The translations under genes were made by a program, and so were the position numbers. A stretch of 64,000 nucleotides of DNA from a virus (Duplodnaviria; Heunggongvirae; Uroviricota; Caudoviricetes): positions 37,731 through 101,730 of the IMG/VR virus record IMGVR_UViG_3300009502_000023; one strand, 5' to 3'. Within the stretch, counting starts at the first letter, position 1; each line of letters begins with the position of its first letter. Positions 3,314-46,709 of this stretch are shown one piece after another. The notes under the pieces are model-generated. The model ran no database searches, was not told where the DNA came from, and saw nothing but the letters and a program-made list of their open reading frames with translations.

Positions 3314-4537
3314 ATGAAGAAGTTCGATCTTAGAAAGTTGTTGGATGGTATCACTTATGAACCGCAGTTGAATTTGATTGCGACGATGTTTAGTGATGTT
3401 GACAGATATAATCTTCCGGTCACTAAACATCTTTTCAATATCGATAATAAATATTACTTGCTTGCAGAAAATAATTATGCTAAGGTTGTTGTTGGGCCTG
3501 ATTATAATTTTATCTTTCTAAAGCAAGATCGGTTTGGTTTGACTACTGGATTCTTTCAGAGATGGGGTAAGACAAAAGATGATAATCCAGATTTTGCACC
3601 CATTGGTCCAGAAATTCTTGATATTGAAATTAGTGTAAATGGTTGTCCGAATGCTTGTCCGTTCTGTTATAAGAATAACAAGAATGTTCCACCAACCAAT
3701 ATGACATTAGATACGTTTAAATCCATTATTAATAAAATGCCTCGAGTATTAACCCAAGTTGCTTTTGGTATTACTGGAGTCAAAACAAATCCTGATTTCC
3801 TTCCTATGATGAAGTATTGTCGTGAAGTTGGGATTCTTCCAAACTTTACATTGAGCGGAATTGATCTTGATGATACTATGGCAGATGAATTATCACAGGT
3901 TGCTGGTGCTCTTGCTGTGAGTGCTTATGCATCTGATAAGAATGTTTGCTATGATACTGTAAAGAAATTTACTGATCGAGGAATGAGTCAAGTTAATATT
4001 CATTTGATGGTCAGTCAACAGACATTGCCTTTTGTAAAAGAGGTTTTAGCTGATCGATTGACTGATCCACGACTCGAGAACATGCATGCAATTGTATTCC
4101 TTGGTGTTAAACCTAAAGGTCGAGCTAAGAATGAATATACTCCATTGACTCTTCAAGAGTATGGTGATATCGTTCAGTACTCATTGAAAGCAGGATTTAA
4201 TTTTGGATTTGATTCATGTTCAGCTCCAAAATTTGAATCTGTAATTAAAGATACTGCTATTGATATTGAACCAGTTATTAAAGATCAATTGATTGAGTCT
4301 AGTGAATCCTGTGAGAGTTCATTATTCTCAAGTTATATCAATACTGCTGGCGAGTATTGGCATTGTTCTTTTGCTGAGAATGAGGATGGTCAGAATTTTG
4401 TAGATGTTACCAAGGCAAAGGACTTCATTGTCGATGTCTGGTATTCTGATACAGTTAAGAAATTCAGAGAGAATTCAATCAATACAATGGTTGGTGGATG
4501 TCGTCGTTGTACAGTATTCCCATCGATCAACCCATAG
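3314..4537 (+). CDS. radical SAM enzyme, function unknown (possibly linked to nucleotide/7-deazaguanine modification)
   Basis: CPNACPFC = CxxxCxxC 4Fe-4S/AdoMet cluster motif near N-terminus; 407 aa. Confidence 0.6.
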   Translation: MKKFDLRKLLDGITYEPQLNLIATMFSDVDRYNLPVTKHLFNIDNKYYLLAENNYAKVVVGPDYNFIFLKQDRFGLTTGFFQRWGKTKDDNPDFAPIGPEILDIEISVNGCPNACPFCYKNNKNVPPTNMTLDTFKSIINKMPRVLTQVAFGITGVKTNPDFLPMMKYCREVGILPNFTLSGIDLDDTMADELSQVAGALAVSAYASDKNVCYDTVKKFTDRGMSQVNIHLMVSQQTLPFVKEVLADRLTDPRLENMHAIVFLGVKPKGRAKNEYTPLTLQEYGDIVQYSLKAGFNFGFDSCSAPKFESVIKDTAIDIEPVIKDQLIESSESCESSLFSSYINTAGEYWHCSFAENEDGQNFVDVTKAKDFIVDVWYSDTVKKFRENSINTMVGGCRRCTVFPSINP

Positions 4538-13481: not shown

Positions 13482-14552
13482 ATGAATAAGTTATGTGAAT
13501 GCGGTTGCGGAAAAGAAGTAATTAGTGATAAACATAGATTTATCCATGGACACAGTACCAAAGGAAGAAAAGATCTTTATATTAAACGAGCAAAAAATTT
13601 TAAAGAAAAACACGGAGTGGAATATCCGGGCCAACTGGAGAGCGTTCAGAATAAATCTAAACAAACATGTTTAAAAAAATATGGTAAAGAATATACATTC
13701 CAAACCAAATGTGTTAAAGATAAGATTAAGAAAAAATGCTTAGAGAACCTGGGTGTAGAAAATCCAAGTCAATCAGAAATTATTAAAGAGAAAAAAATAC
13801 AAACATATCTAGAAAGTCTAAATGTAGAAAACCCAAGTCAATCAGATATCATTAAAAAGAAAAAAAGTCAAACAAATTTAGAACATTGTGGTTTTGAAAA
13901 TCCAATGCAATCACAAAATGTTCAAGAAAAATCAAAACAGACAAATATAAATCATCGCGGTGTTGAATATCCGATGCAATCAGATGATGTTCAAGAAAAA
14001 TCAAAACAGACAAATATAAAGAATCGGGGCGTTGAATATCCATTTCGGTCAAAAGAAGTTCAGGAAAAATATAAACGGACATGTGTATATAACTATGGTG
14101 TTGATAATTTTGCAAGGACACCACAATTTAAAGAAATGGCTCGTATCAATAGTATCAGAATGATAGAAAATCAATTAGTTAATGGTGAACCAATGTGTCC
14201 GTTTATTGGTGATCATGAAAGACTATTTTTAAATGAACTTCAACACCACGTAACATATAAAATCATTCGAAATGATATTTCTTTTAGATATATTAAAGGT
14301 AGATTTCCCGATGGTCATATCTCAGAATTAAAACTTTTTATTCAGTTTGATGAGAGAGTTCATTTTGAAAATAAAGAAATGACCATATATAAAGAAGATG
14401 ATACAGATTGTACTCTTCAATTAGCATCTCTTGGTTATATTGTTTTTAGAGTATCTGAAAAACAATGGAATGAAAATAAAGAACAAGTTATCAATCAATT
14501 TAAAGGACTACTAGAATGTCTAAGAGAGCAGCAGTTGGCGACGCCCATTTAA
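13482..14552 (+). CDS. homing-endonuclease-like protein (CxCGCG Zn-ribbon + repeats + PD-(D/E)xK-like FPDGHISELK C-terminus)
   Basis: MNKLCECGCGKEV...GHS N-terminus shared with 5 paralogs; repeated K.Q.YLE.LGVENP.QS modules; 37-nt overlap with sbcD start. Confidence 0.6.
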   Translation: MNKLCECGCGKEVISDKHRFIHGHSTKGRKDLYIKRAKNFKEKHGVEYPGQLESVQNKSKQTCLKKYGKEYTFQTKCVKDKIKKKCLENLGVENPSQSEIIKEKKIQTYLESLNVENPSQSDIIKKKKSQTNLEHCGFENPMQSQNVQEKSKQTNINHRGVEYPMQSDDVQEKSKQTNIKNRGVEYPFRSKEVQEKYKRTCVYNYGVDNFARTPQFKEMARINSIRMIENQLVNGEPMCPFIGDHERLFLNELQHHVTYKIIRNDISFRYIKGRFPDGHISELKLFIQFDERVHFENKEMTIYKEDDTDCTLQLASLGYIVFRVSEKQWNENKEQVINQFKGLLECLREQQLATPI

Positions 14553-20794: not shown

Positions 20795-21322
20795 ATGACA
20801 AAAAAGAAAAAAAATCCATTTACTTATATATGTAACGATTTATTACCCGGTACTGATTATTCATTTCATCATTTGATTGAATTGGGTGTTTTATACGGAT
20901 ATACCTATGATGAAGTGATGAAAGCATTATTTACAGAAATTCAAAAGAAGAATCCTAGAATTGTTTTGGGATTTAACAAGAATGCTTTCTTGAATCCAAA
21001 AAATAGATCTAATAAAAAAGTAATTGAACCTATAAAAACAGAAACAGAAATAATTGCTGAAGCAGTTATCAAGAAAAATAAAGAATTTATTCAGAAATGG
21101 ATAGAGACTGAATTTGATAAAAAGCTAGAATCACTGGTTCAGAAATATGTGGTATCTGAGTTTAAGGAAGAAGTTCTTCCGGTTCTTATCGACCGCATCG
21201 ATGGTAAGTTTAAAAACATTCAAGAATCACATACAAAATCTATTAAGGTAGAAGTTATTCAAATTCTATCTGATATGATTATCAAAGCAGCTCAAGAGGA
21301 GATTCCAAGTAATGAAGATTAA
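20795..21322 (+). CDS. hypothetical protein
   Basis: ORF 175 aa. Confidence 0.45.
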   Translation: MTKKKKNPFTYICNDLLPGTDYSFHHLIELGVLYGYTYDEVMKALFTEIQKKNPRIVLGFNKNAFLNPKNRSNKKVIEPIKTETEIIAEAVIKKNKEFIQKWIETEFDKKLESLVQKYVVSEFKEEVLPVLIDRIDGKFKNIQESHTKSIKVEVIQILSDMIIKAAQEEIPSNED

Positions 21323-24161
21323 TTTCTTTAACGTAGATGAGTTTTGTGAAACGATCCCAGAGATTACTACTAATAAAATCTATGCAAAGAGAGGTTTTCA
21401 TCCAAATGGTCTTTTCTCTGAAAAGTTCTTTGGACCGGTAAGGACTTGTACTTGTGGTTGTGGTATTTATTGGGGTCGGTCTAAGATTGGTGAACTCTGT
21501 AGTCAGTGTGGAGTTGAGATTGGGTATTCGAGTTTGAGAAGAAAGAAGTTTGCAAAGATTGCTCTTCCCTTCCCGGCTCTTAATCCAATTATGTACTATC
21601 TTATTCTAAAAGCTGGTAAAGCTACTATTGGAAATGTTATTCATGATATGATTTTCAATGATACTACGATGGGTTATTATTTCGATACTGATTCTAGAAA
21701 GTATATTCAGGTTAAGAAACCAAGCATTGAGAGTGAGACACCTATAATTCCAGAAGGAACAATTCTGTATTCTGGAGCTAATGGTATCTATGAACTAATT
21801 AAGTTTGAATCTGAAAGAATGATGGAAACAAATACGACGTGGAAGTTTATTAATACAAATATTAGTAAATTTTTTATGTCGAATGTTATTGTATGTCCTC
21901 CCGAGTTTAGACCAGTGTCGAAAACTAAAGACGTACAAATGCGTGATAAGATGAATGAGTTCTATATGACTATTCTGAATAATAGTTTGATGGTCAAGAA
22001 TGATGTGACCACTTATGAAAATTCAGAAATTCATATGACCAACTTTAGAAATCAACAGAGATATATCTTCAATTTCTATGAATATATTTTCTCAAAGTTT
22101 TCTAAGAAGTCTGGACTAATCAGAGGTTCTATTCTTGGTAAGAGAATTGACTTTTCAGCTCGTGCTGTAATTAGTCCTGAACCAAAATTACTTCTTGATG
22201 AATGTTCTCTTCCTTATATTATAGCATTAGAATTATTTAAGCTTCCTATTGTAAATCGATTGTTGGAGATGAAAAATTACGGAGATCGTAAATTCGTAAG
22301 ATATGATCCAACTATTGATTATGTTAATGATTGTATTAAGTTGAAAGACCTTGCTTTACTTGATATTGTCAGAGAAATAACAGCAGGAAAATTGGTATGC
22401 TTAAATCGTCAACCAACTTTGCATCGAATGGGTTTGTTGTCATTTAAGATTCTTATCAATACAGACCATGTAATTAAGATTCATCCGATGGCGTGCGAAC
22501 CATATAATGCAGACTTTGATGGCGATCAGATGGCTGCATATATTTCTCTATATCCTGAATCTGAAGCTGAAAATAAAGAGAAGATGTTTATCTTAGCTAA
22601 CTTAGTATCTCCATCTACAGGTAAGATGATTCTTGGTGCAAATCAAGATATTTTGCTTGGGTTGTACTTAATGACTAAACCAGATGAAACTAAGAAAGTT
22701 ACTTATAAAAATATCGAAACTTATGAGGGTCGAGTTAAGTTTAATAGTATCTTCCCTGATAATTTTCCGTTTTTGAATAGGACGATTAATAAGAAGGAAC
22801 TGCATGTTCTCTTGAATATTTTAGTTCAGGTTTATCCTCCTGAGACTGTTAAGAATATTCTTGATAATATGAAGAATATGGGATTCTATGAAACTACAAC
22901 TCGGGGTACCACATTCTCGTTGAAAAACTTGAGTGGTGAAGGTATCCATGATGTAATTTCTGGTATTGTGGATGATCCAACAAAGACACCACAAGAAAAA
23001 TTCCATCTTCTTGCTGATCATCCCCTAAAGAAACAAATTCAAGAAGATTTCCCCTACAAGGATTTTATTGAATCTGGATCACGTGGTTCCTGGGAACAGG
23101 CAAATCAATTGATCTTCTGTAGAGGTTATATGTCTAACTCAAAGGGCGAGATGGTGGAAACACCGATTAAGAATAATCTCGTTCATGGTTTGACAAAAGA
23201 TGAGTTCTTTACATCCTGTTATGGATCTCGCAAGGCATTACTTGATGTAGCTCTTAATACTGCAGTATCTGGATATTTGACTCGCAAATTAGTTTATTGT
23301 ACTATTAATCTTGAACTTGATGAAAAGAAAGATGATTGTGGTACAACCGATTACTTCGAAGTTAAGATTCCAGAATTAATGACTGATGATAAGTTCAACG
23401 AGTTGGTTGCTGGCATTCCTGATCTCATTGAACGAAAGATTATGAAAGATCATCTTAAACACAAGTATGAAGAGATGGACCCAATTAAACTTACCAGAAG
23501 TTTAATTCATCGTTATATGACTGTTACATCAGAAACTGGTGAAACTATATTGAAGTTGATTGATGAAGATAATTATCATACCTTGTTTGGTAAGACAGTT
23601 AAGCTTCGTTCACCAATCTTCTGTAAGTCAGCTAGAATTTGTAAGACATGTTATGGTAAGATGAGTGATAAGGTTCATTCAAAGTATGTTGGTGTGTTAG
23701 CAGCTCAAGCCCTTGGCGAAGTTGCAACTCAGCTTACTCTTCGGACTTTCCACACTGGTGGTGTTGCGAAGGTGAGCAAAGATAAAGATTCATCACACCA
23801 AGATATCATTAGTGACTTGACAGTAGTTAATAGATTGCTGCATGGATCGGCTAGTGGTTCCTACTCTGAATTGATCTTGAAATTGTTCTCGGTTTATTTG
23901 AGACATAAGGTATTACTGTTGATTAATTTTGAATTGGTAGTCAGCCAACTCATGCGCATAGGAAACATGAGATGGAGATTGCACCCAAATCGAGATACTG
24001 AAAATTATCAATTGGTTTCGGTTGAGAATGTACCTTCTAGGGAGAGTTTCCTTCTGGCATTAGCATTCTCGAAGCCGTATAATTATATCGTTAGTGGTAT
24101 TCTTGGTAATAGTCAAACGACCGATGGTATTCTCGAGAAGATGTTAATTAATCGAATTTAG
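21312..24161 (+). CDS. rpoC: RNA polymerase beta-prime-like subunit (compact, single polypeptide)
   Basis: N-term Zn ribbon CTCGCG...CSQCG; universal catalytic NADFDGDQMA at about 22507-22536. Confidence 0.85.
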   Translation: MKINFFNVDEFCETIPEITTNKIYAKRGFHPNGLFSEKFFGPVRTCTCGCGIYWGRSKIGELCSQCGVEIGYSSLRRKKFAKIALPFPALNPIMYYLILKAGKATIGNVIHDMIFNDTTMGYYFDTDSRKYIQVKKPSIESETPIIPEGTILYSGANGIYELIKFESERMMETNTTWKFINTNISKFFMSNVIVCPPEFRPVSKTKDVQMRDKMNEFYMTILNNSLMVKNDVTTYENSEIHMTNFRNQQRYIFNFYEYIFSKFSKKSGLIRGSILGKRIDFSARAVISPEPKLLLDECSLPYIIALELFKLPIVNRLLEMKNYGDRKFVRYDPTIDYVNDCIKLKDLALLDIVREITAGKLVCLNRQPTLHRMGLLSFKILINTDHVIKIHPMACEPYNADFDGDQMAAYISLYPESEAENKEKMFILANLVSPSTGKMILGANQDILLGLYLMTKPDETKKVTYKNIETYEGRVKFNSIFPDNFPFLNRTINKKELHVLLNILVQVYPPETVKNILDNMKNMGFYETTTRGTTFSLKNLSGEGIHDVISGIVDDPTKTPQEKFHLLADHPLKKQIQEDFPYKDFIESGSRGSWEQANQLIFCRGYMSNSKGEMVETPIKNNLVHGLTKDEFFTSCYGSRKALLDVALNTAVSGYLTRKLVYCTINLELDEKKDDCGTTDYFEVKIPELMTDDKFNELVAGIPDLIERKIMKDHLKHKYEEMDPIKLTRSLIHRYMTVTSETGETILKLIDEDNYHTLFGKTVKLRSPIFCKSARICKTCYGKMSDKVHSKYVGVLAAQALGEVATQLTLRTFHTGGVAKVSKDKDSSHQDIISDLTVVNRLLHGSASGSYSELILKLFSVYLRHKVLLLINFELVVSQLMRIGNMRWRLHPNRDTENYQLVSVENVPSRESFLLALAFSKPYNYIVSGILGNSQTTDGILEKMLINRI

Positions 24162-24170
24162 CTTAAAATG

Positions 24171-24198
24171 GGGCGGGACCACAAACCGCCCTTCTTTC
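24171..24198 (+). terminator. short GC hairpin terminator
   Basis: GGGCGG ... CCGCCC followed by TTCTTT. Confidence 0.4.
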
Positions 24199-24219
24199 AG
24201 AATGATTTTATAGGTAATT

Positions 24220-25164
24220 ATGAATAAGTTGTGTAAGTGTGGTTGTGGTCAAAAAACAGTATTTAATAAAAATTCTAAACAATTTAATATGTTTATCAAA
24301 GGACACAGTAATAAAGGAAAAATTCATTCTGCTGAAACTAGAAATAAAATATCAGTTCGATTATCTGGTAAAGTACCATGGAATAAAGGTGCGCCTGCAT
24401 CAGAAGAATCTAAACTTAAAAATTCTATGGCTCACATCGGGAGAGAACATTCAGAAGAATCAAAAAGAAAAATATCTGAAAATAATGCTAAAACCATGTT
24501 GGGAAAGAACTGGTCTAAAGAAGTAAAACAAAAAATTAGAGAATCTAGATTGGGTAAAAAAGCATCTGCAGAAACTCGATTAAAAATGAGAGAGTGGCAA
24601 CTTGGAAAAATTATTCCAGAAATATCTAAAGAGAAAATAAAAGAAACATGGAATAATAAAAGCAAAACGGAATTAGATATTATAAAACAAAAAAGACAAC
24701 ATACGTTATTATATAATTATGGATTTGATAATTTTTCTAAAACACCACAATTTAAAGAAATGGCAAGAATTGCATCTATTAAAATGGTCGAAAACCAAAT
24801 AGCCAGTGGGGAACCACTATCTCCTAAAATTGGACCACAAGAACGATCATTTCTAAATGAACTCCAACAGTATACCTTGTATAAAATTATTCGAAACGAT
24901 TCTTCTTTTAGATATATTAAAGGTAGATTTCCAGATGGACATATATTAGAATTAAAACTTTTCATTCAATTCGATGAACGATTTCATTTCTCCGATATTG
25001 CTTGTAAAATCTATAAACAAGATGATATAGATTGTACTCTTCAACTTGCTTCTCTCGGTTATATCATTTTTCGAGTTTCAGAGAAACAATGGAAAGAAAA
25101 CAAAGAGAAAACAATTTCTGATTTCAAAAACTTTTTGGTACTGTTAGATCAAGGAAGAAACTAA
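24220..25164 (+). CDS. homing-endonuclease-like protein (Zn-ribbon + NUMOD3 repeats HSAETRNKIS/HSEESKRKIS + PD-(D/E)xK-like C-term) inserted between RNAP subunit genes
   Basis: MNKLCKCGCG N-term; multiple NUMOD3-like repeats; C-term FPDGHILELKLFIQFDE nearly identical to 13482 paralog. Confidence 0.6.
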   Translation: MNKLCKCGCGQKTVFNKNSKQFNMFIKGHSNKGKIHSAETRNKISVRLSGKVPWNKGAPASEESKLKNSMAHIGREHSEESKRKISENNAKTMLGKNWSKEVKQKIRESRLGKKASAETRLKMREWQLGKIIPEISKEKIKETWNNKSKTELDIIKQKRQHTLLYNYGFDNFSKTPQFKEMARIASIKMVENQIASGEPLSPKIGPQERSFLNELQQYTLYKIIRNDSSFRYIKGRFPDGHILELKLFIQFDERFHFSDIACKIYKQDDIDCTLQLASLGYIIFRVSEKQWKENKEKTISDFKNFLVLLDQGRN

Positions 25165-25177
25165 AGGGAGATATCAC

Positions 25178-28100
25178 ATGCTTCGAGTTCCCGCATACGA
25201 GTTACAGAATATCAATGTGTATAATTTTAGAAACCATGAATGGAATGAAGAAACCATAATCGATAATATCAACAAGATGCTTGTTTGTGGTGAAGATTAT
25301 GGTTTGCGAATCAAGTCAGTAGTTATTAAAAATAAAGAAGAAAAAGAAACATCCGAAGTTAAAAGAACCAAGAGTAAGATTCTTGATATCTCTCTTGCAT
25401 ATACTAATGAAGAAGGAACCGAGGATGTTGATCTGAGTTATGATCTTCCTTGGTTGTTACAAAATCACTTTTTCATTAGTGGCAACTGGAAAGTTTGTGT
25501 ATACCAGTTGTTTGATAAGCCTGTTATTAAACGTCCAGGTATTATCAAAATTCGCACCAATATTCAATCGATCATGCTTGAAAAGAAAACAGGAACAAGA
25601 CGTAAATTTTCTTATGAGATTAGTCTTTTTGGAAAGAAGTTTGCTTTTGCTAAGCTTCTTATTGCTTATTTGGGAATTGAGCAAACTAAGGCTCGGTTTA
25701 CTCTGAATGAGAATAATGAGTATACCGGTCCTGTAATCAATGAGGATATTGATCTTTTGATCAAAGATATTACTGCAGTACTCAATGATGTTTCTCTTGA
25801 TAAGGCTAGACTTTTGGAAACATATTTTCCAAGAAAAGTGGATGCTAAAATTATTGAGGATGTTCTTTTGATTACTAAGATTGATATCTTTAGTAAGAAG
25901 TATTTTAATACCGATAATGTCATTGAAGAATTTCTCTTCACTATTCAAAATGATATTAGCGATGATTCCAATTATGCTAATAAGAGAATTCGATTTGTTG
26001 AGCAGGTTGTATACGTCCATCTTGCAAAGGATTTCTATAATCTAATTAACTCTATTCGAAAGAATAGAAAGTTGAAGTTCTCTGTTAACTCTAAATCTAT
26101 TTTGTCAAATGTCAATGTATCTAACATTGTACAGTTTGATAATAGTTTGAATCCACTTTCAGAACTAGCTATGTTGTCAAGAACATCATTGTCTGGTCCT
26201 GGTGGTTTTGAAAAAGCTAATGTCCCACAGTCATTGAGAGAGATTCATCCCTCCATGTTGTATTTGATTGATCCATCAGATACTGCAGATCGTGAAGGCT
26301 GTGGTACAATTCAATATCTTATTCCTAATACGGAATTCAATCAGGATGGTACATTCTTTTCTAGAGGTAAGAAGGTTATTAATTCTGTCTCTGAAAGTTT
26401 TGTTCCGTTCCTTGAGCATGATGACGCAACTCGGTTACAGATGTCTTCGAGTCAGCAGCGGCATGCAATTATGTTAAAGAAATTCGATAACGCACTAATC
26501 CAGAGTGGTGTTGAAGGAATGTATACTGATCAGACCTCTTTCTTATTTAAAGCAAAGAGAAATGGTAAAGTCATTTATCTTGATGATAATATCATTTGTG
26601 TTCAGTATGATAATAAAACCTGTGAAGCATTTCATATTGGATATCGAAAACTGTATATCTCTACAGTAGATTTCTATAAGGTTTATTACAACATTGGTGA
26701 TACCTTCTCTAAGAATGATATCATTGCAGAATCCAATTATCTTAGAAATGGTAATATTACACTTGGAAAAAATTGTTTGGTAGCTATCATGCCTTGGTAT
26801 GGTTATAATTATGAAGATGGTATTATTATCTCTCAGAAAGTTGCTGAAGAGGATTATTTTACCAGTGTTCATTATGTTGACCTGATTATTGAACTAGCAC
26901 CAAATAAAGTATTGATGAATCAGGGAACAGATTATACCAATTATAAACCACTTCCTGAAATCGGTCAAGTTCTTCATCGCGGTGACTCATATGCAAAAAT
27001 TAAAGCTATCGACACCGATGGTTTTGATGATGTGATGTTTGAACCAGTAACAGAAGAATGTGTGACCGAAGATTGTAAGATTGTGGATATTAAGATCTAT
27101 GCGAATAAATGGAATAAGAATTTTCCACAGTATGATCTGTTTATTCAGGAACTAATTAAAACACAGAAGTCAAAGAAGACCGATATTATCAAGAAATTAT
27201 CTAGTCATCTTACTAAAGAAGAACTGGATAAACTTACAGATACTCTCGAGATTCATCAGACCGAAAAGAATAATTATAAGATCAAGGGTGAGTATATTGA
27301 TGGTGTCAGAATTGAAATTACTGCTGTTTATGAAAGAAAAGTAACAGTCGGTGACAAGTTAGGAAATCGGCATGGGAATAAGGGTGTGATTTCTAAGATT
27401 GCACCTATTGAAGAAATGCCAGTATTACCTGATGGTCGTAAAGCTGATATTATCATTAATCCTCTTGGTATTATTTCTCGTATGAATATTGGTCAGGTCT
27501 ATGAGGCACATCTTGGTATGGCACTTATGGATTTGAAGAAGATAGTTCGAGAGATGCATAATGAGAAGAAAACTCAAAAAGAAATTTACGAATATATCTT
27601 GGGATTCATTAAGATAATCGATATGACAGAGAACGGTAATTATTATCAACAGATGAAGACGATCTTTGATAGTTTACCGATTCAGAGTTTTATTGATAGT
27701 CTTGATAATTTCTTTGTTATTCAGCCACCATTTGAATCTATTCAATGGGTTCAATTAAATAAAGCAATGGAATATACTAAGACCGCATTTGAGATTACTG
27801 TGTTTGATCCAATCTCTGGAGCGAACATTCAGAATCCAATCAATTGTGGTTATATGTATTTCATGAAACTTAACCATATTGCTCAGGATAAAATGTCATA
27901 TCGTGGCATTGGACCCTATTCAGCTAAGACATCTCAACCCCTAGGTGGTAAATCTAGAAAAGGTGGACAGCGTCTTGGTGAAATGGAAATTTGGGCAGTG
28001 ATTGGTCATGGTGCTGAAAAGAATCTTAATGAATTCATTTCTGTTAAATCAGATTCAATCAAACTCAGAAATAAATACATTTCAGAATGTATGTGTAACA

Positions 28101-28465
28101 GTGATCTATTACTAGATTCTGATGATGATGAGGTTCCGCAGTCACTAAGATTGCTTCAGACAAATCTAAAATCAATTGGTTTGGATTATGCTTTGTTTGA
28201 GGGCGAGAATAAATTCTTACCTGAACTAGATGAGGATGATGGAGATGAAACAGAAAAAGCAATTGAAAATCTTAAACAGGTTTTATCTTCTGAGAATGCT
28301 CGTGAAGACATTCCTGTTATAGAAGGTATTGGTGATGGAACTACAACAATTGAAATTGGAACAGCTGTAGATGAGAAGAAAATCATTTATGATGATACTT
28401 TGGTAGATCAGTTTCCAATGGATGAAGAATTACTGGAAGGAATTTCTAACGATGACAACGAATAA
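25178..28465 (+). CDS. rpoB: RNA polymerase beta-like subunit (compact, single polypeptide)
   Basis: RHGNKGVISKI and GGQRLGEMEIWAVIGHGA beta-subunit signature motifs. Confidence 0.85.
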   Translation: MLRVPAYELQNINVYNFRNHEWNEETIIDNINKMLVCGEDYGLRIKSVVIKNKEEKETSEVKRTKSKILDISLAYTNEEGTEDVDLSYDLPWLLQNHFFISGNWKVCVYQLFDKPVIKRPGIIKIRTNIQSIMLEKKTGTRRKFSYEISLFGKKFAFAKLLIAYLGIEQTKARFTLNENNEYTGPVINEDIDLLIKDITAVLNDVSLDKARLLETYFPRKVDAKIIEDVLLITKIDIFSKKYFNTDNVIEEFLFTIQNDISDDSNYANKRIRFVEQVVYVHLAKDFYNLINSIRKNRKLKFSVNSKSILSNVNVSNIVQFDNSLNPLSELAMLSRTSLSGPGGFEKANVPQSLREIHPSMLYLIDPSDTADREGCGTIQYLIPNTEFNQDGTFFSRGKKVINSVSESFVPFLEHDDATRLQMSSSQQRHAIMLKKFDNALIQSGVEGMYTDQTSFLFKAKRNGKVIYLDDNIICVQYDNKTCEAFHIGYRKLYISTVDFYKVYYNIGDTFSKNDIIAESNYLRNGNITLGKNCLVAIMPWYGYNYEDGIIISQKVAEEDYFTSVHYVDLIIELAPNKVLMNQGTDYTNYKPLPEIGQVLHRGDSYAKIKAIDTDGFDDVMFEPVTEECVTEDCKIVDIKIYANKWNKNFPQYDLFIQELIKTQKSKKTDIIKKLSSHLTKEELDKLTDTLEIHQTEKNNYKIKGEYIDGVRIEITAVYERKVTVGDKLGNRHGNKGVISKIAPIEEMPVLPDGRKADIIINPLGIISRMNIGQVYEAHLGMALMDLKKIVREMHNEKKTQKEIYEYILGFIKIIDMTENGNYYQQMKTIFDSLPIQSFIDSLDNFFVIQPPFESIQWVQLNKAMEYTKTAFEITVFDPISGANIQNPINCGYMYFMKLNHIAQDKMSYRGIGPYSAKTSQPLGGKSRKGGQRLGEMEIWAVIGHGAEKNLNEFISVKSDSIKLRNKYISECMCNSDLLLDSDDDEVPQSLRLLQTNLKSIGLDYALFEGENKFLPELDEDDGDETEKAIENLKQVLSSENAREDIPVIEGIGDGTTTIEIGTAVDEKKIIYDDTLVDQFPMDEELLEGISNDDNE

Positions 28466-29102
28466 AAAACTTGATGACGCAACAAATGCCGAGATAATGT
28501 CTTGTTCCGATAAAGATGTGATTAAACACGAATTGGAACTAAAGTATCCCGGTGCTGTTGATCATGTTAAAGCTATATTGAAATTGATTGGAGATGATCC
28601 AGACCGTGAAGGTTTGCGTGATACTCCTTATAGAGTTGTAAAAAGTTGGCTTGAACTATACAATTATGATTCAAATTTAGATAATATAATGGGTACCTTT
28701 TTTGAAGAGGAAATTGGTGATCAAACAGATGAGATGGTAATATGTAAAAATATATCTTTCTTTTCTACTTGTGAGCATCATATGATACCTTTTAGTGGAT
28801 TAATAAGTATAGGATATTTACCAACCAATAAAGTAATCGGTGTTTCTAAAATGGTAAGATTGGTAGAACATTTTGCAAGAAGACTTCAAATTCAAGAAAA
28901 ATTGGGCAGTCAAATTGCAGATAGTATGATGCAATACTTAAATCCGCAGGGTGTTGGTGTGATCATTACAGCCAAGCATCTATGCATGTCTGCTAGAGGT
29001 GTAAAAAATCAAACTTCATCGATGACCACATCATCTATGAGAGGAAAATTTAAAACACAATCACAGACGAGAACTGAGTTTTTATCATTAATTAAAGATT
29101 AA
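28422..29102 (+). CDS. folE: GTP cyclohydrolase I (probable true start ATG 28452)
   Basis: CEHHMIPF active-site motif and overall FolE-like sequence. Confidence 0.85.
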   Translation: MKNYWKEFLTMTTNKKLDDATNAEIMSCSDKDVIKHELELKYPGAVDHVKAILKLIGDDPDREGLRDTPYRVVKSWLELYNYDSNLDNIMGTFFEEEIGDQTDEMVICKNISFFSTCEHHMIPFSGLISIGYLPTNKVIGVSKMVRLVEHFARRLQIQEKLGSQIADSMMQYLNPQGVGVIITAKHLCMSARGVKNQTSSMTTSSMRGKFKTQSQTRTEFLSLIKD

Positions 29103-29944: not shown

Positions 29945-29988
29945 TCGTTGACAGATAATTTAATCGTTATCTGTCAACGATTTTCTTT
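29945..29988 (+). terminator. rho-independent terminator
   Basis: 13-bp stem CGTTGACAGATAA/TTATCTGTCAACG, loop TTTAATCG, then ATTTTCTTTT. Confidence 0.6.
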
Positions 29989-29991
29989 TCA

Positions 29992-30011
29992 GTATGAATA
30001 AATTATAAAGT
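29992..30011 (+). promoter_or_regulatory. conserved 20-nt element TATGAATAAATTATAAAGTT (candidate promoter), identical copy at 51290
   Basis: exact 20/20 match at two loci, each just downstream of a terminator and upstream of an RHH-endonuclease pair; contains TATAAA. Confidence 0.35.
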
Positions 30012-30031
30012 TATTATTTAGGATGTGTGGT

Positions 30032-30202
30032 ATGAAATCAATGATAATAGACGAAGATCTTCATCGAATATTAAAAGTACTTTCAGCAGAAAAAGTTAGA
30101 TCAATTAGAAGTTTAATTTGTGAAGCTTTGATTGATTTATTTCGAAAGTATAATAAAGAAATTTCAAAAAATTTAGAGACTTATCATGAACGAAATACAT
30201 AA
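30032..30202 (+). CDS. small ribbon-helix-helix-like protein (56 aa, not in ORF track)
   Basis: MKSMIIDEDLHRILKVLSAEKVRSIRSLICEALIDLF resembles CopG/RHH fold; paralog at 51333. Confidence 0.45.
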   Translation: MKSMIIDEDLHRILKVLSAEKVRSIRSLICEALIDLFRKYNKEISKNLETYHERNT

Positions 30203-31022
30203 ATTATGCGAGTGCGGTTGTGGAAAAGAAGTAAAATTATCATCTAGTAGATTTTGTAGTGGTCATAATATGATCGGGGTGATAAAATCAAAAGAAACAC
30301 TTCTAAAAATAGCAAACTCAAATAGAGGACAAAAACGTTCTTTAGAAACAAAAGAAAAAATATCTAATTCGCATAAAGGAAAAAAACATTCGTCAGAAAC
30401 AATAGTAAAAATAGCAAACTCAAATAGAGGACAAAAACGTTCTATAGAAACAAAAGAAAAAATATCTAATACTAGTAAAGGAAGAGTAATGCCCCCTATA
30501 ACAGAAGAAACAAGAAAGAGAAGATCTATTTCTGCAACAGGAAGAATGCTCTCATTAGAAACAAAAGAAAAAATATCCAAAGCACATATAGGAAAAAGAT
30601 GTTCACCTGAACATATATTGAATATGAGTATTGCTCAAATGAAACGAGTAGAAAAACAATTATTTAATGGTGGACCAATGTATCCTTGTATGGGGAATAA
30701 TGAAACACAAATTCTTGATTGTTTTCAAACAGAATCAGGAGAGAGGATTCTAAGAAACGATCATGATTTATTTCTAAAATCGGGCAAATTTCCAGATGGT
30801 TATATTAAAAAATATAATCTGTGTATTGATATTCTTGAACCACACCATTTTAAACCAAATGGTGAATTAAGTGACAAAGATCAAAAACGAGAATTAAGAA
30901 TAGCTTTACATCTCGGTTGTATGATATATTATGTTCCAGAACAAGAATTTCTTTTTAATCAAAATAAAGAGATTCATCGATTCAAAGATTTTCTATTAAC
31001 ACTAGATGAGGATCGAAACTAA
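30186..31022 (+). CDS. homing-endonuclease-like protein, variant subfamily (Zn-ribbon + NUMOD3 repeats; C-terminal nuclease motif degenerate)
   Basis: MNEIHKLCECGCGKEV; repeats GQKRSLETKEKISNSHKGKKHSSETIVKIA; C-term FPDGYIKKYNL lacks the ELK of paralogs; sister of 51457 gene. Confidence 0.55.
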   Translation: MNEIHKLCECGCGKEVKLSSSRFCSGHNMIGVIKSKETLLKIANSNRGQKRSLETKEKISNSHKGKKHSSETIVKIANSNRGQKRSIETKEKISNTSKGRVMPPITEETRKRRSISATGRMLSLETKEKISKAHIGKRCSPEHILNMSIAQMKRVEKQLFNGGPMYPCMGNNETQILDCFQTESGERILRNDHDLFLKSGKFPDGYIKKYNLCIDILEPHHFKPNGELSDKDQKRELRIALHLGCMIYYVPEQEFLFNQNKEIHRFKDFLLTLDEDRN

Positions 31023-31731
31023 AGTGATTAATTTAAACTGTTCTCTTTTACTCAAAGATCTTTATAGCTATGATATTCATTCTGCTTATCCTAGTATTCT
31101 TCAAAAACAACATTATGATTTTAAAGAAACTAATCTAGAAAATAAAACGGAAAGATCCATTTTTATAGGTAAAGAACAAATTGGAAATATTGACTTGTCT
31201 GAGTTTCTAATCGAATCGGTTGATAGTTTGATTAAATATTATCTTCAAGAGAATAATGTTGGGGATGAAGATATTATCACAATTCAACGAGATGGTTGTA
31301 TTATTAAAAAGATGTTGGATAATGATGATGAGTTTATTAAATTAGAATTAAGAGAATTGATTGATTTTTTGATTATGGCACCAGACAGAAAGAAATATCT
31401 TTTCTTAGCAAATGGAAAGATCACGATCAAAGGTCTAGCTCATTACTATGAAGAACTAGATAGTATTTACCAAAGATTTGCTAACTTTACTTTTTATGAT
31501 AAGTCCATATTGTTTGAACAAATGGATGACATCAAACAAGAGATATTGAAAACAGAGAATAAGAAACTGTTTTTAATTCCAAGAGAAAATTCTTTTATAG
31601 TATTAACTCATAAGGGTGATATTACAGTTAAAGATCCAGATTTTGTAGACCTAGATTCAATCAACAGAATTAAGTATTACAATCATTACTTTGCTGATTT
31701 CTTGAGATCAATATATTTAGAATGTTATTAG
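31006..31731 (+). CDS. hypothetical protein
   Basis: ORF 241 aa. Confidence 0.45.
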   Translation: MRIETKVINLNCSLLLKDLYSYDIHSAYPSILQKQHYDFKETNLENKTERSIFIGKEQIGNIDLSEFLIESVDSLIKYYLQENNVGDEDIITIQRDGCIIKKMLDNDDEFIKLELRELIDFLIMAPDRKKYLFLANGKITIKGLAHYYEELDSIYQRFANFTFYDKSILFEQMDDIKQEILKTENKKLFLIPRENSFIVLTHKGDITVKDPDFVDLDSINRIKYYNHYFADFLRSIYLECY

Positions 31732-34960: not shown

Positions 34961-36007
34961 ATGAATAAGTTATGCGAATGTGGTTGTGGTATTGAAGTAA
35001 CCAATGAGAATAATAGGTTTTTAAAGGGACATAGTAGAAAAGGAAATAAAGAATCTTATATAAAACAAGCAAAAAATTACAAAGAAAAATATGGTGTTGA
35101 AAATCCATTTCAATTAGAACTAGTTAAAGATCAGATTAAACAAAAACATTTAGAAAATTTAGGTGTTGAAAATCCCAGTTATTCAAAAGAGATTAAAGAA
35201 AAGAAAACTAAAACAAGTTTAATAAGATATGGCTGTATGCACCCAATGCAATTTGAAAAATTTAAAGAGAAATCAAAGCAAACATGTAAAGAAAAGTTGG
35301 GTGTTGATTTTGCATTTCAATCAGAATCAGTCAAAGAAAAAATCAAACAAACCAGTTTTACAAAATTTGGTACTGATCATCCGATGAAATCAAAAGAAAT
35401 TCAAGATAAGAAAATTAAAACATTGATTGAAAATTTGGGATTTTCGAACCCAATGAAATCAGAAATATGCAAAAATAAAGCAAGAAAAACAAATATAGAA
35501 AAATTTGGCGTTTCGAATCCTAGTCAGTCTAAAATAGTTAAAGAACAGAAAAAACAAACATCAATAAAACATTGGGGTTTTGATAATTGGTCAAGAACAC
35601 CACAGGGAAGAAAACTACATCGAATTAATTCTATTAGAATGAGAGATGACCAATTAGCTAATGATGAACCAGCAATGCCGTGCGTTGGTATTGAAGAACG
35701 ACCATTTTTAAATACTCTTCAGCAATATACAAAATTTAATATCATTCGAAATGATAATTCTTTCAATCATGATGTTGGCAGATATCCAGATGGTCATATT
35801 CCCGAGTTAAAACTTTTCATTCAATTTGATGAAAAATTTCATTTTGAAAATAAAGAAATGACTATCTATAAAGAAGATGATCTAAATTGTACACTTGAAC
35901 TAGCATCTTTGGGATATATTGTTTTCAGAATTTCAGAAAAACAATGGAGAGAAAATAAAGAACACGTAATAGATCAATTTGAACTTATCATAACAGAACA
36001 CGAATGA
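34961..36007 (+). CDS. homing-endonuclease-like protein (Zn-ribbon + repeats + PD-(D/E)xK-like YPDGHIPELK) upstream of ligase
   Basis: MNKLCECGCGIEV; repeated K.Q.HLENLGVENP modules; C-term near-identical to 13482/24220 paralogs. Confidence 0.6.
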   Translation: MNKLCECGCGIEVTNENNRFLKGHSRKGNKESYIKQAKNYKEKYGVENPFQLELVKDQIKQKHLENLGVENPSYSKEIKEKKTKTSLIRYGCMHPMQFEKFKEKSKQTCKEKLGVDFAFQSESVKEKIKQTSFTKFGTDHPMKSKEIQDKKIKTLIENLGFSNPMKSEICKNKARKTNIEKFGVSNPSQSKIVKEQKKQTSIKHWGFDNWSRTPQGRKLHRINSIRMRDDQLANDEPAMPCVGIEERPFLNTLQQYTKFNIIRNDNSFNHDVGRYPDGHIPELKLFIQFDEKFHFENKEMTIYKEDDLNCTLELASLGYIVFRISEKQWRENKEHVIDQFELIITEHE

Positions 36008-44858: not shown

Positions 44859-46709
44859 ATGTGTGGTATTGTTGGATTCTATGCACGAGAAAGTGCAATT
44901 GATTATAAACATCTTGATACTCTATTCATGGGTGCTGAGAAACGCGGTCAGGATGGTTTTGGTTATGTCTTGATTAGAAAAGAAAATGGTAAACGAGTAT
45001 TCAAAGTTTCTTTTAAGAGTGCTGAACCATATTCTAAAATTAAAGATGCAGTCAAGAAAGATCTACAATGTTGTGGAATTCAGATTGGTGATTTGCTTAT
45101 CGCAATTGCTCGAGCTGCACCCGAGACAGAAGGTGAAACAAATGCTGATGATTTAGCAGAAACTATGCAACCGATTATTAATCATACCCATGGTTTATAT
45201 ATCGTACATAATGGTGCTGTGAGTAATAAGATCCACAGAGAATTACAGTTGAATTCTTCATTTACCGGATACAATTTTAAAACAAAGATTGATTCTGAAG
45301 CTATTGCTGCTGCTTATGTTTTGAAACAAAGAAATATGAAAGATGCTATGGAGTATCTTTCTGGTGGATTTGCTGCAATAGTGTATGATCAATTTAAGGA
45401 TATGGTTTATGTCATTAATGATTTTAAACCAATCGCCCACGGTTATGTTAAAGGTGTTGGTTTCTTTCTGCATAGTGATAATGATGTTCTGGGTGAAGTA
45501 ATCAAAAGTATTACATCCTGCGAAAGGGATGGAATATGTATGTGGGAAAACTTTTATCATCACTATTTAAGCGGTGGAAGAATTAAAGAGATTGATCTTG
45601 ATTCTGGTTTCATGAGAAACATCAAGTATTCTCCAAGATTCATTACTCCGAAATGGGATAGTAATCGAGGAATTAAAGTTCAACCAGAAAATAAAAGTAT
45701 CAAAGCTGAAATTTGTGCTATAGAAGATGCAAAAATTTACACGTGCATAACGGGTGGTGATGATAGTCTTTGTTTAGTTGCCGCTAGTGGTGGACTTGAT
45801 AGTTCAATGACATTGGCAACTTTAAAAATGGCTGGTTACAATAACATCATAGCTTGTCATTTCAATTATGGTCATCGAGGTAGTAAAGCAGAGTACATGG
45901 CGATTCAAGCTATCTGTATTGAGTTAGGTATTCCTCTACAGTACTTTGATTTATCTGGTAACTATAGAGCTATGGGTACCACATCAATGCTTACTGATAG
46001 TAATGCAAAAATTACTACTGGGACAGCTGATGGGTTAAAGCAACTAGAAGCTTGGGTTAACTTGAGAAATACTCAATTCTTAACTTGGATGGCAACGTAT
46101 GCTGAGTCTTTAGTAATGAAATTTAACTATAAGAAGGTTTACTTCCTTGGGGGTTTCTTAAATCTTTCTGAGTCTGGTCATTACCCAGATAATTCAGAAT
46201 ACTTTTTACAAACCTTCTTAGACCATCTTAAATATGGTTCTTTAATCGGACAAAGGATTATCCCTTTATATTGTCTAAGTAACATTATGAAGCACGAATT
46301 GTTTGTCATGATTAAAGCGTTTGGTTTGGAAAATGTATATCGTCATACAATCAGTTGTGATCGTCCGATGATTGAAACACCATCTTGTGATCATACTAGA
46401 ATAAATCATATTCCAAAGAATTCATTCGATGGAGTAGCTTGTAATTGTATGAAGGATGGAATGCCCGCTTGTGGAAGTGGACTGCTTAGTTACTGGGGTG
46501 CTAAGATGGTTGGTATGGATGATATGAAACTTCGTAATTTCTGTGAAGTAGATGATCCAGACTATCATGCTTATATTCCAGAACACATTAAATCAAAGTT
46601 TAATAAAACACCAGATATTAATACAATTATCAACAGGATTATTTTACCTGAAGATAAACTAAACAACTTAAGGAAACGTTTGAATGAAAACAAGAAACTC
46701 ATTAGTTAG
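44859..46709 (+). CDS. queC: glutamine amidotransferase (class II, Ntn Cys2) fused to QueC-like 7-cyano-7-deazaguanine synthase (Gat-QueC)
   Basis: MCGIVGF N-terminal nucleophile; PP-loop SGGLDS; FNYGHRG (QueC FDYGQRH); C-terminal Cys cluster. Confidence 0.75.
   Translation: MCGIVGFYARESAIDYKHLDTLFMGAEKRGQDGFGYVLIRKENGKRVFKVSFKSAEPYSKIKDAVKKDLQCCGIQIGDLLIAIARAAPETEGETNADDLAETMQPIINHTHGLYIVHNGAVSNKIHRELQLNSSFTGYNFKTKIDSEAIAAAYVLKQRNMKDAMEYLSGGFAAIVYDQFKDMVYVINDFKPIAHGYVKGVGFFLHSDNDVLGEVIKSITSCERDGICMWENFYHHYLSGGRIKEIDLDSGFMRNIKYSPRFITPKWDSNRGIKVQPENKSIKAEICAIEDAKIYTCITGGDDSLCLVAASGGLDSSMTLATLKMAGYNNIIACHFNYGHRGSKAEYMAIQAICIELGIPLQYFDLSGNYRAMGTTSMLTDSNAKITTGTADGLKQLEAWVNLRNTQFLTWMATYAESLVMKFNYKKVYFLGGFLNLSESGHYPDNSEYFLQTFLDHLKYGSLIGQRIIPLYCLSNIMKHELFVMIKAFGLENVYRHTISCDRPMIETPSCDHTRINHIPKNSFDGVACNCMKDGMPACGSGLLSYWGAKMVGMDDMKLRNFCEVDDPDYHAYIPEHIKSKFNKTPDINTIINRIILPEDKLNNLRKRLNENKKLIS

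What the first reader, a model, noticed from the sequence alone, without database searches (positions are those of the whole stretch)
21312..28465. Compact, unsplit beta-prime (949 aa) and beta (1095 aa) RNAP subunits separated by a homing endonuclease gene
Both catalytic subunits are present as single ORFs with canonical motifs (NADFDGD; RHGNKGV; GGQRLGEMEIW). Each is about 25-30 percent shorter than the bacterial subunits. Known phage multisubunit RNAPs (phiKZ-like, AR9/PBS2-like) are split into several polypeptides. An endonuclease gene sits exactly in the beta-prime/beta intergenic gap, a typical homing target flanked by highly conserved sequence.
Basis: partly seen in the sequence, partly recalled or inferred. 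Interest (0 to 1): 0.6.

Follow-up and report, generated by a model that had tools for sequence, protein, structure and literature searches.

The report
Phage RNA polymerase genes split by endonuclease
This is the pair of catalytic RNA polymerase genes of an uncultured phage from a lineage already described in 2020, with a selfish homing-endonuclease gene inserted in the short spacer between them; it is a real but fairly ordinary feature.

Summary
The ORFs at 21312-24161 (beta', 949 aa), 24220-25164 (314 aa) and 25178-28465 (beta, 1095 aa) exist, and all three quoted motifs are present. Both subunits are complete genes. Eighty-five related loci have the same sizes and the same beta'-then-beta order, and both proteins align in order with E. 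coli RpoC and RpoB.

The implied novelty does not hold. At least 458 IMG/VR contigs encode relatives. Four of the fetched contigs are listed in the published mReC dataset (Weinheimer and Aylward 2020), including one whose beta' is 67% identical. Cultured phages with unsplit subunits also exist.

The middle ORF is a free-standing homing endonuclease with N-terminal NUMOD3 repeats and a C-terminal Vsr-like nuclease, the architecture of the EDxHD family (I-Bth0305I). Close relatives either carry it or have a 10-12 nt spacer instead. Other endonuclease types occupy the same gap in other relatives. The window holds six paralogs. Its synonymous divergence is about one third that of the flanking genes.

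No alpha, omega or sigma homolog and no second polymerase pair lies in the window.

Verdict: a new member of known kinds, of low to moderate interest.

The parts
21312..24161 (+). beta' (RpoC-like) gene, 949 aa, complete and unsplit. It has Zn site 1 (C48, C50, C63, C66), NADFDGD at aa 399-405, Zn site 2 (C676, C771, C777, C780), the trigger-loop motif TFHTGG at about aa 812-817, and a conserved C-terminal block.
   Evidence: invariant columns; hhalign probability 100, 804 columns, family positions 15-839 against E. coli 35-1003.
24170..24197 (+). G+C-rich hairpin (GGGCGGG...CCGCCC) followed by TTCTTTC, directly after the beta' stop codon. It resembles an intrinsic terminator and belongs to the inserted cassette.
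   Evidence: -14.4 kcal/mol, z -2.6; an equivalent hairpin with a T-run is present at every endonuclease-bearing junction (L003, L006, L090, L091) and absent from the endonuclease-free junction of L089.
24220..25164 (+). Free-standing homing endonuclease gene, 314 aa. It has an N-terminal CxCGCG cysteine cluster, NUMOD3 DNA-binding repeats (aa 33-67 and following), and a C-terminal Vsr-like (EDxHD-type) nuclease domain (about aa 200-310) with E208, D239, E253 and H256 invariant and D269 conserved in at least 90% of sequences.
25164..25170 (+). Shine-Dalgarno-like AAGGGAG, 7 nt upstream of the beta start codon. Beta therefore keeps its own translation start downstream of the insertion.
   Evidence: read directly from the sequence.
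25178..28465 (+). beta (RpoB-like) gene, 1095 aa, complete and unsplit. The N-terminal 258 aa are divergent and short. The conserved core is aa 259-1005. RHGNKGV lies at aa 731-737 and GGQRLGEMEIW at aa 929-939.
   Evidence: (hhalign probability 100, aa 259-1005 against E. coli 440-1338).
28193..28462 (+). Lineage-specific acidic C-terminal tail of beta (aa 1006-1095; 29 of 90 residues are D or E). It extends beyond the end of bacterial beta and overlaps the start of the downstream GTP cyclohydrolase I gene.

Best explanation
The locus encodes the two catalytic subunits of a phage-encoded multisubunit RNA polymerase of the mReC lineage, in the order beta' then beta. Each subunit is a single reduced but complete polypeptide. 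A selfish free-standing homing endonuclease cassette has inserted into the spacer of about 10-20 nt that separates the two genes in relatives lacking it.

Shown here: beta' carries both zinc sites, the Mg-binding NADFDGD loop, the bridge-helix and trigger-loop region, and the C-terminal conserved block. Beta carries the Rpb2 domain 6 and 7 core. E. coli-specific insertions are absent, and the N-terminal part of beta is short.

Inferred: the two proteins form the catalytic cleft of a polymerase that transcribes phage genes. Its partner subunits and promoter-specificity factor are not identified.

The 314-aa protein pairs NUMOD3 DNA-binding repeats with a Vsr-like (EDxHD-type) nuclease. Inferred mechanism: during mixed infection it cuts the endonuclease-free allele, probably within the conserved 3' end of beta' or the 5' end of beta. 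Recombinational repair from the endonuclease-bearing genome then copies the cassette into the break.

The cassette carries a terminator-like hairpin. In relatives it also carries a GAATAAAT promoter-like motif and a small ribbon-helix-helix ORF. Beta keeps its own ribosome-binding site.
For: Subunit identity: Pfam; PDB sequence matches to bacterial beta' and beta at E 1e-75 to 1e-88; hhalign probability 100 against E. coli RpoC and RpoB.

Completeness: 85 related loci have beta' of 882-1020 aa and, in 84 of them, beta of 994-1125 aa (one locus, L054, has a 728-aa beta ORF). The genes are always adjacent and on the same strand. No other RpoB- or RpoC-like piece occurs in any of the six frames of the window.

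Phage context: terminase large subunit, Dda-like helicase, NAD ligase and Mre11/Rad50-like genes.

Known clade: 458 IMG/VR contigs encode relatives. Contigs Ga0075113_1000011, WOR52_10000459, Ga0075125_10000139 and Ga0114918_10000434 are listed in the mReC supplementary files and correspond by sample number and contig length to loci L006/L011, L081, L067 and L063.

Endonuclease identity: NUMOD3; homologs carry DUF7487, DUF559 or MTES_1575 and are named very-short-patch-repair endonuclease by JGI; C5, C7, C9, E208, D239, E253 and H256 are invariant across 42 homologs; the AF2 C-terminal domain has pLDDT above 90; Foldseek matches the I-Bth0305I catalytic domain 3r3p (target TM 0.63-0.75), the DUF559 protein 3hrl (0.77) and Vsr 1vsr/1cw0.

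Mobility:
- Patchy presence among close relatives. The ORF is present in the window, L003, L090, L091 and L006. It is absent, with a 10-12 nt spacer, in L089 and the P0014 contig. It is absent in all relatives at 55% beta' identity or less.
- The gap ORF of L006 is closer to a different window paralog (42% identity) than to this one (26%).
- An HNH-type NUMOD endonuclease occupies the same gap in L039.
- Six paralogs lie in the window beside other conserved genes.
- Between the window and L003, dS of the endonuclease is 0.44 against 1.2-1.4 for beta' and beta, with dN/dS 0.24.
Against: No cleavage activity, target site or homing event can be shown from sequence. No co-conversion gradient is visible in the flanks between the window and L003. 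The dS values of the flanks are near saturation, so the contrast in dS is approximate. The alignment of the last 130 aa of beta' to E. coli is weak (hhalign probability 13%) and rests on short conserved motifs. The N-terminal 258 aa of beta align to E. coli only at one short motif. Transcriptional activity, subunit composition and promoter specificity of the polymerase are entirely inferred.
Confidence: 0.85

Rival explanations
1. The NUMOD3 protein between the subunits is a domesticated DNA-binding or transcription accessory factor of the phage polymerase, not an active selfish endonuclease.
For: It sits between the two subunit genes in five of seven close relatives. It is under purifying selection (dN/dS 0.24). 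NUMOD motifs are DNA-binding modules (PMC3239194).
Against: It is absent from L089, from the P0014 contig and from all relatives at 55% identity or less, which keep a spacer of -17 to about 90 nt or carry unrelated small ORFs. The putative nuclease residues are invariant in 42 homologs. Six paralogs lie beside unrelated conserved genes such as Mre11/Rad50, ligase and terminase. Non-orthologous endonucleases occupy the same gap in other relatives.
Confidence: 0.06
2. The endonuclease gene is an immobile remnant, fixed in this lineage and no longer homing.
For: The ribbon-helix-helix ORF and the GAATAAAT motif that accompany the cassette in L003, L006 and L091 are missing at this junction. No co-conversion gradient is seen.
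Against: The ORF is intact, keeps all invariant residues, has dN/dS of 0.24, and has much lower dS than its flanks.
Confidence: 0.08
3. The two large ORFs are host-derived or contaminating cellular rpoC/rpoB from a reduced-genome bacterium, or fragments of split genes, rather than complete phage genes.
For: The best PDB and GenBank-phage matches are bacterial subunits at about 27% identity.
Against: The gene order beta' then beta is the reverse of E. coli rpoB-rpoC. The neighbourhood is phage-like. 458 viral contigs carry relatives. The published phylogeny places the clade apart from cells (PMC7481178). Lengths are uniform across 85 loci. No further fragments lie in the window.
Confidence: 0.01

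Closest known systems
mReC clade: multimeric-RNAP-encoding Caudovirales (Weinheimer and Aylward 2020, PMC7481178)
   Same: Unsplit beta and beta' detectable with cellular HMMs, on Caudovirales contigs from metagenomes. The dataset lists pairs of about 1000 and 905 aa. It contains the contig (Ga0075113_1000011, equal to L006/L011) whose beta' is 67% identical to the window's, with two genes between the subunit genes (a_158 and a_161).
   Different: The paper treats the genes as phylogenetic markers. Its main text does not mention 'homing' or 'intein', and it was not found to describe gene order or domain content. The window's own sequence is not in that dataset as far as I could check.
phiKZ-like and AR9/PBS2-like jumbo phage multisubunit RNA polymerases (review PMC7598289)
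   Same: Phage-encoded polymerases related to cellular beta and beta'. From my own knowledge, they also lack recognisable alpha and omega.
   Different: [quoted passage not shown]
Cultured phages with unsplit subunits: Cobetia phage Carin-5 and Rhizobium phage RHph_TM30
   Same: Carin-5 has two adjacent unsplit genes of about 1083 and 927 aa, both annotated 'DNA-directed RNA polymerase subunit beta'. The first matches the window's beta', so the order is probably also beta' then beta. RHph_TM30 has an unsplit beta' of about 1127 aa.
   Different: Identity to the window's beta' is only 24-25%. Carin-5 has a gene annotated as a sigma factor directly upstream, which the window lacks.
Bacterial RpoC/RpoB (E. 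coli)
   Same: Collinear catalytic core, both zinc sites, NADFDGD, bridge helix and trigger loop, and Rpb2 domains 6 and 7.
   Different: Gene order is reversed. From HMM alignments, E. coli beta' segments of about 529-568, 659-692 and SI3 (about 943-1130), most of the jaw and the C-terminal tail have no counterpart. The first 440 residues of E. coli beta correspond to only 258 residues here. An acidic tail of 90 aa is added to beta. These boundaries are approximate.
EDxHD (Vsr-like) homing endonucleases: I-Bth0305I and phage Hef-type free-standing endonucleases (PMC3239194)
   Same: N-terminal NUMOD DNA-binding region followed by a C-terminal Vsr-like catalytic domain. The conserved acidic and histidine residues come in the same order. 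Foldseek matches 3r3p.
   Different: I-Bth0305I is encoded in a group I intron in recA and has NUMOD2 motifs, whereas this gene is free-standing (no intron) and has NUMOD3 repeats and an N-terminal CxCGCG cluster. Sequence similarity to 3r3p is about 15-17%.
Free-standing homing endonucleases of T4-like phages (seg and mob genes) (my own knowledge; see also PMC10448857)
   Same: Intergenic endonuclease genes between conserved essential genes, patchy among relatives, with several copies per genome.
   Different: The T4 genes are GIY-YIG or HNH enzymes, whereas this family uses a Vsr-like nuclease.

Membership tests
Multisubunit RNAP largest subunit (beta'/Rpb1) | Double-psi beta-barrel with the Mg-binding NADFDGD motif | tested here: met
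   NADFDGD at aa 399-405; Pfam Rpb1 domain 2 at E 7.5e-31; invariant in the family alignment.
Multisubunit RNAP largest subunit (beta'/Rpb1) | The two zinc-binding cysteine clusters of bacterial beta' | tested here: met
   C48, C50, C63, C66 and C676, C771, C777, C780 are invariant in 14 relatives. The first cluster aligns with the E. coli cysteine-rich segment. The residue numbers of the E. coli zinc sites are from my own knowledge.
Multisubunit RNAP largest subunit (beta'/Rpb1) | Bridge helix, trigger loop and C-terminal conserved region, that is, a full-length subunit | tested here: inconclusive
   Pfam Rpb1 domain 5 covers aa 626-822, and hhalign reaches E. coli residue 1003. The last 130 aa align only weakly (probability 13%), although HFECVVSQLM matches HIEVIVRQML and ESWLLALAFS matches ESFISAASFQ.
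Multisubunit RNAP second-largest subunit (beta/Rpb2) | Rpb2 domains 6 and 7 with the conserved GNKG and GGQRxGEME motifs | tested here: met
   Pfam Rpb2 domain 6 at E 5.4e-63 and domain 7 at E 5e-15; motifs at aa 731-737 and 929-939; hhalign probability 100 to E. coli residues 440-1338.
Multisubunit RNAP second-largest subunit (beta/Rpb2) | N-terminal protrusion and lobe domains | tested here: inconclusive
   Only one short motif (aa 88-117 against E. coli 125-155) aligns, at E 0.15. The region spans 258 aa against 440 in E. coli.
mReC clade (PMC7481178) | Beta and beta' group with the published mReC sequences, apart from cellular homologs | tested here: met
   Beta' is 67% identical to the beta' of Ga0075113_1000011, which is listed as mReC, and 38-41% identical to those of three other contigs named in the mReC supplementary files, against about 27% to bacterial beta'. 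No tree was built here.
mReC clade (PMC7481178) | Caudovirales hallmark genes on the same contig | tested here: met
   Terminase large subunit at 54535-56307 (PHROG E 1e-40). A gp23-type major capsid protein was neither sought nor seen in the window.
EDxHD / Vsr-like homing endonucleases | C-terminal catalytic domain with the Vsr-like fold | tested here: met
   The AF2 C-terminal domain has pLDDT above 90. Foldseek gives 3r3p at target TM 0.63-0.75, 3hrl at 0.77 and 1vsr/1cw0 at 0.50. The E-values are weak (0.004-0.4) because only one third of the query aligns.
EDxHD / Vsr-like homing endonucleases | Conserved composite E-D-x-H-D catalytic residues | tested here: met
   E208, D239, E253 and H256 are invariant and D269 is conserved in at least 90% of 42 homologs. 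Their order agrees with D196, N208, H213 and D222 of I-Bth0305I. The correspondence is inferred from order and spacing, not from a superposition.
EDxHD / Vsr-like homing endonucleases | N-terminal NUMOD DNA-binding region | tested here: met
   Pfam NUMOD3 at E 3.9e-13, followed by repeated helical units up to aa 195 in the model.
Homing endonuclease gene (behaviour) | Sporadic distribution at one site among otherwise syntenic relatives | tested here: met
   The ORF is present in 5 and absent in 2 relatives at 67-88% beta' identity, and absent in all relatives at 55% or less.
Homing endonuclease gene (behaviour) | Site-specific cleavage of the empty allele and copying by repair | not testable with these tools
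   This needs purified protein and an endonuclease-free junction substrate, or mixed infections.

The most novel reading that the evidence does not exclude
The compact beta'/beta pair is a self-sufficient minimal polymerase core that works without alpha or omega. It would be one of two polymerases in these phages, since the mReC table lists a second, larger pair on three related contigs, in parallel with the virion and non-virion enzymes of phiKZ-like phages. In this reading it reads GAATAAATTA-type promoters, and the E1-like/E2-like module kept directly upstream of beta' in about 95% of relatives is functionally tied to transcription takeover.
Probability: 0.1. Interest if true: 0.65.

Novelty: new member of a known kind. 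Interest (0 to 1): 0.25.

Why it matters
The finding corrects the idea that phage multisubunit polymerases are always split. It places this window in the published mReC lineage. It documents that the beta'/beta junction of that lineage is a recurrent landing site for several kinds of homing endonuclease, and that the trigger loop of beta' is a site for inteins. The endonuclease-free and endonuclease-bearing junctions identified here are ready-made substrates for testing a Vsr-like free-standing homing endonuclease. The reduced subunits could be useful for studies of a minimal polymerase. None of this changes current understanding.

Tried and rejected
- Megablast of the locus against GenBank phages found nothing.
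- A PDB sequence search with the endonuclease found nothing meaningful; the fold search was needed.
- The conserved 210-aa ORF upstream of beta' was tested as a candidate sigma- or alpha-like subunit. It has an E2 ubiquitin-conjugating fold with an HPN...C motif instead.
- The 175-aa ORF that overlaps the beta' start has no family match and occurs only in close relatives.
- Pfam and PHROG scans of about 50 window ORFs found no alpha, omega or sigma homolog.
- A second beta/beta' pair was not found in any of the six frames of the window or in the 8.3 kb upstream of it.
- GAATAAATTA with one mismatch is not enriched (30 matches against 25 expected). Only exact copies are enriched, and none lies upstream of beta'.
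- No co-conversion gradient appears in the flanks between the window and L003.
- No group I intron or other Rfam family lies at the junction, and no flanking repeats bound the insertion.
- BLASTP of the beta' C-terminus against E. coli gave nothing significant, and hhalign was weak.

Full report
**Observation.** The translations contain NADFDGD (beta' aa 399-405), RHGNKGV (beta aa 731-737) and GGQRLGEMEIW (beta aa 929-939). Pfam finds Rpb1 domains 2, 3, 4 and 5 in the first ORF, NUMOD3 in the second, and Rpb2 domains 3, 6 and 7 in the third. The window has about 30-36% G+C, nearly all its genes are on one strand, and it carries one tRNA-Gly. It encodes a terminase large subunit, a Dda-like helicase, an NAD-dependent ligase and Mre11/Rad50-like proteins. 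It is therefore a tailed-phage genome fragment. The identical sequence occurs in ENA metagenome assemblies.

**Are the subunits complete?** A profile-based scan of IMG/VR found 458 viral contigs encoding relatives of beta', and 80 were fetched. Together with loci obtained by exact protein look-up, 85 loci were analysed.
- In every locus, beta' (882-1020 aa) is followed on the same strand by beta (994-1125 aa in 84 loci; L054 has a 728-aa beta ORF).
- A family profile aligns to E. coli RpoC with hhalign probability 100 over 804 columns (family 15-839 against E. coli 35-1003).
- Both zinc clusters are invariant.
- The last 130 residues align only weakly but keep recognisable counterparts of the E. 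coli motifs HIEVIVRQML and ESFISAASFQ.
- Beta aligns to E. coli RpoB residues 440-1338 with probability 100. Its first 258 residues are divergent and retain only one recognisable N-terminal motif.
- No other RpoB- or RpoC-like segment exists in any frame of the window.

The ORFs are therefore complete genes, not fragments.

**Size.** Compared with E. coli, beta' is 33% shorter and beta 18% shorter. Beta is about the length of Thermus beta (1119 aa) and includes an acidic tail of 90 residues that bacteria lack. The HMM alignments suggest the following differences:
- E. coli beta' segments of about 529-568, 659-692 and SI3 are missing, along with most of the jaw and the C-terminal tail.
- The N-terminal part of beta is compressed.

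These boundaries are approximate.

**Is this new?** No. Weinheimer and Aylward (2020, PMC7481178) described the mReC clade, Caudovirales whose beta and beta' are close enough to cellular homologs to be aligned.
- Their supplementary table lists many pairs of about 1000 and 905 aa.
- It includes Ga0075113_1000011, the contig whose beta' is 67% identical to the window's. The subunit genes there are a_158 and a_161, with two genes between them.
- The mReC supplementary files also name WOR52_10000459, Ga0075125_10000139 and Ga0114918_10000434, which correspond by sample number and contig length to my loci L081, L067 and L063.
- The jumbo-phage polymerase review describes this group as distinct and as a separate branch on the tree.
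- Cultured phages with unsplit subunits also exist. Cobetia phage Carin-5 has an annotated sigma factor gene followed by two adjacent unsplit genes, both annotated as RNAP subunit beta, the first of which matches the window's beta'. Rhizobium phage RHph_TM30 has an unsplit beta'.

No GenBank phage record is close: the best real phage matches have about 25% identity.

**The middle gene.**
- Its homologs carry DUF7487, DUF559 or MTES_1575, and JGI names them very-short-patch-repair endonucleases.
- Across 42 homologs, C5, C7, C9, E208, D239, E253 and H256 are invariant, and D269 is conserved in at least 90%.
- An AlphaFold model has a confident C-terminal domain (pLDDT above 90).
- That domain matches the catalytic domain of the homing endonuclease I-Bth0305I (3r3p, target TM 0.63-0.75), a DUF559 protein (3hrl, 0.77) and Vsr.
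- The architecture, NUMOD repeats followed by a Vsr-like nuclease, is that of the EDxHD family, which also includes free-standing phage Hef-type genes (PMC3239194).
- There is no intron or other Rfam family at the site and no flanking repeats.

**Evidence for mobility.**
- Among close relatives the gap is occupied in the window, L003 (88% beta' identity), L090 (74%), L091 (72%) and L006 (67%).
- In L089 (73-76%) and the P0014 contig (69%) the two genes are 12 and 10 nt apart. In all relatives at 55% identity or less this endonuclease is absent.
- The gap ORF of L006 is closer to another window paralog (30186-31022, 42% identity) than to this one (26%).
- L039 carries an unrelated HNH-type NUMOD endonuclease in the same gap.
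- The relative P0074 has an intein inside the trigger-loop motif of beta'.
- The window contains six paralogs of the family, beside the Mre11/Rad50, polymerase, ligase and terminase genes.
- Between the window and L003, the endonuclease has dS 0.44 against 1.2-1.4 for beta' and beta, with dN/dS 0.24 against 0.06. This fits more recent exchange of a still-functional gene.
- A co-conversion gradient was not seen.

**Anatomy of the insertion.**
- Every occupied junction begins, right after the beta' stop codon, with a G+C-rich hairpin and a T-run. In the window this lies at 24170-24197 (-14.4 kcal/mol).
- In L006 and L091 a GAATAAAT motif follows, about 35 nt before a small ribbon-helix-helix ORF that precedes the endonuclease. 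L003 also has a small ORF before its endonuclease, but no GAATAAAT copy was found at its junction. The cassette at window 29945-31022 has this motif-plus-small-ORF layout, and the one at about 51260-52176 appears to have it too (its hairpin was read from the sequence only).
- At the window's beta'/beta junction the small ORF and the motif are missing, and the endonuclease starts 58 nt after the beta' stop.
- The empty junction of L089 reads TAA-TGAGGTTATATA-ATG.
- Beta keeps its own Shine-Dalgarno sequence.

- No alpha, omega or sigma homolog was found among about 50 window ORFs.
- The conserved 210-aa ORF just upstream of beta' is present in 81 of 85 loci. It is not a polymerase subunit. It has an E2 ubiquitin-conjugating fold and an HPN...C motif, and it sits next to a ThiF/E1-like ORF.
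- GAATAAATTA occurs exactly seven times against 0.99 expected. All copies are intergenic and face a downstream gene, several just after hairpins. It is a plausible promoter element, but none precedes beta'.
- No second polymerase pair lies in the window or in the 8.3 kb upstream. The mReC table lists a larger pair (about 1365 and 1005 aa) on three related contigs. On two of them the table also lists the compact pair; on the third I found the compact pair myself.

**Verdict.** This is a new member of two known kinds: the mReC polymerase and a Vsr-like free-standing homing endonuclease.

Noticed in passing
[not shown]
   Followed up: partly
window 13482-14552, 24220-25164, 30186-31022, 34961-36007, 51439-52176, 53526-54542: Six paralogous NUMOD3/Vsr-like endonuclease genes (27-49% pairwise identity) lie in 64 kb, each next to a conserved gene (Mre11/Rad50, polymerase, NAD ligase, terminase).
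   Followed up: partly
window 29945-30202 and about 51260-51464; L006 10938-11137; L091 8949-9154; L089 13859-14058: Cassette layout repeated at several endonuclease genes: a hairpin plus T-run (shown for window 29945-29980, L006 and L091; read from the sequence only at window about 51260), then GAATAAAT(T/A) 35-40 nt before a small ribbon-helix-helix ORF of 43-56 aa that directly precedes the endonuclease gene. The small ORF may regulate the endonuclease.
   Followed up: partly
window 42, 108, 1669, 7685, 29996, 33126, 51293: GAATAAATTA occurs exactly 7 times against 0.99 expected. All copies are intergenic and oriented toward the downstream gene, 2 to about 60 nt before its start codon (five of them within 13-40 nt). 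It is a candidate phage promoter element, resembling the T4 late TATAAATA (from my own knowledge).
   Followed up: partly
loci L021, L022, L028-L032, L040-L047, L049, L050, L052, L056, L073, L074, L076-L078 and others, between beta' and beta: About 30 of the roughly 70 loci in the clade at about 40% identity carry a conserved ORF of about 60 aa (MRDPxRI...PDLRLTQLIMN...YYxEDD) in the beta'/beta gap. It is unrelated to the endonuclease cassette, and its function is unknown.
   Followed up: no
protein P0074 (and P0068), relatives of beta': An intein of about 370 aa is inserted in the trigger-loop motif TFHT|...|SG of beta'. L039 carries a 287-aa NUMOD+HNH endonuclease in the beta'/beta gap. The polymerase genes of this clade are repeatedly invaded by different mobile elements.
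   Followed up: partly
window 28193-28462: Beta ends in an acidic tail of 90 aa (29 D/E, 6 K/R) that is absent from bacterial beta and shorter or absent in the clade at 40% identity. It overlaps the start of the GTP cyclohydrolase I gene.
   Followed up: no
window 28422-29102, 44859-46709, 3314-4537: GTP cyclohydrolase I, an amidotransferase with a QueC-like PHROG match, and a weakly radical-SAM-like protein are present. Together they suggest a 7-deazaguanine (queuosine-precursor) pathway, possibly for DNA modification. This is an inference from my own knowledge.
   Followed up: no
window 31006-31731: A 241-aa ORF with the sequence DIHSAYPSI, which resembles motif A of family B DNA polymerases, is conserved downstream of beta in 67 of 85 loci. 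It has no Pfam match.
   Followed up: no
PMC7481178 supplementary file 5; contigs Ga0075113_1000011, SMTZ23_10000109, WOR52_10000459: The published table lists a second, larger beta/beta' pair (about 1365 and 1005 aa) on contigs that also carry the compact pair. The compact pair of WOR52_10000459 is my locus L081. I did not find this discussed in the paper's main text. No second pair lies in the window or in the 8.3 kb upstream.
   Followed up: partly
L094 5639-6346 and 7602-8330 compared with L095: Two nearly identical contigs that cover the region upstream of the window differ by the presence of a 235-aa DUF559/MTES_1575 ORF and a 242-aa minus-strand ORF. This is further presence/absence polymorphism of nuclease-like genes in this phage population.
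   Followed up: no
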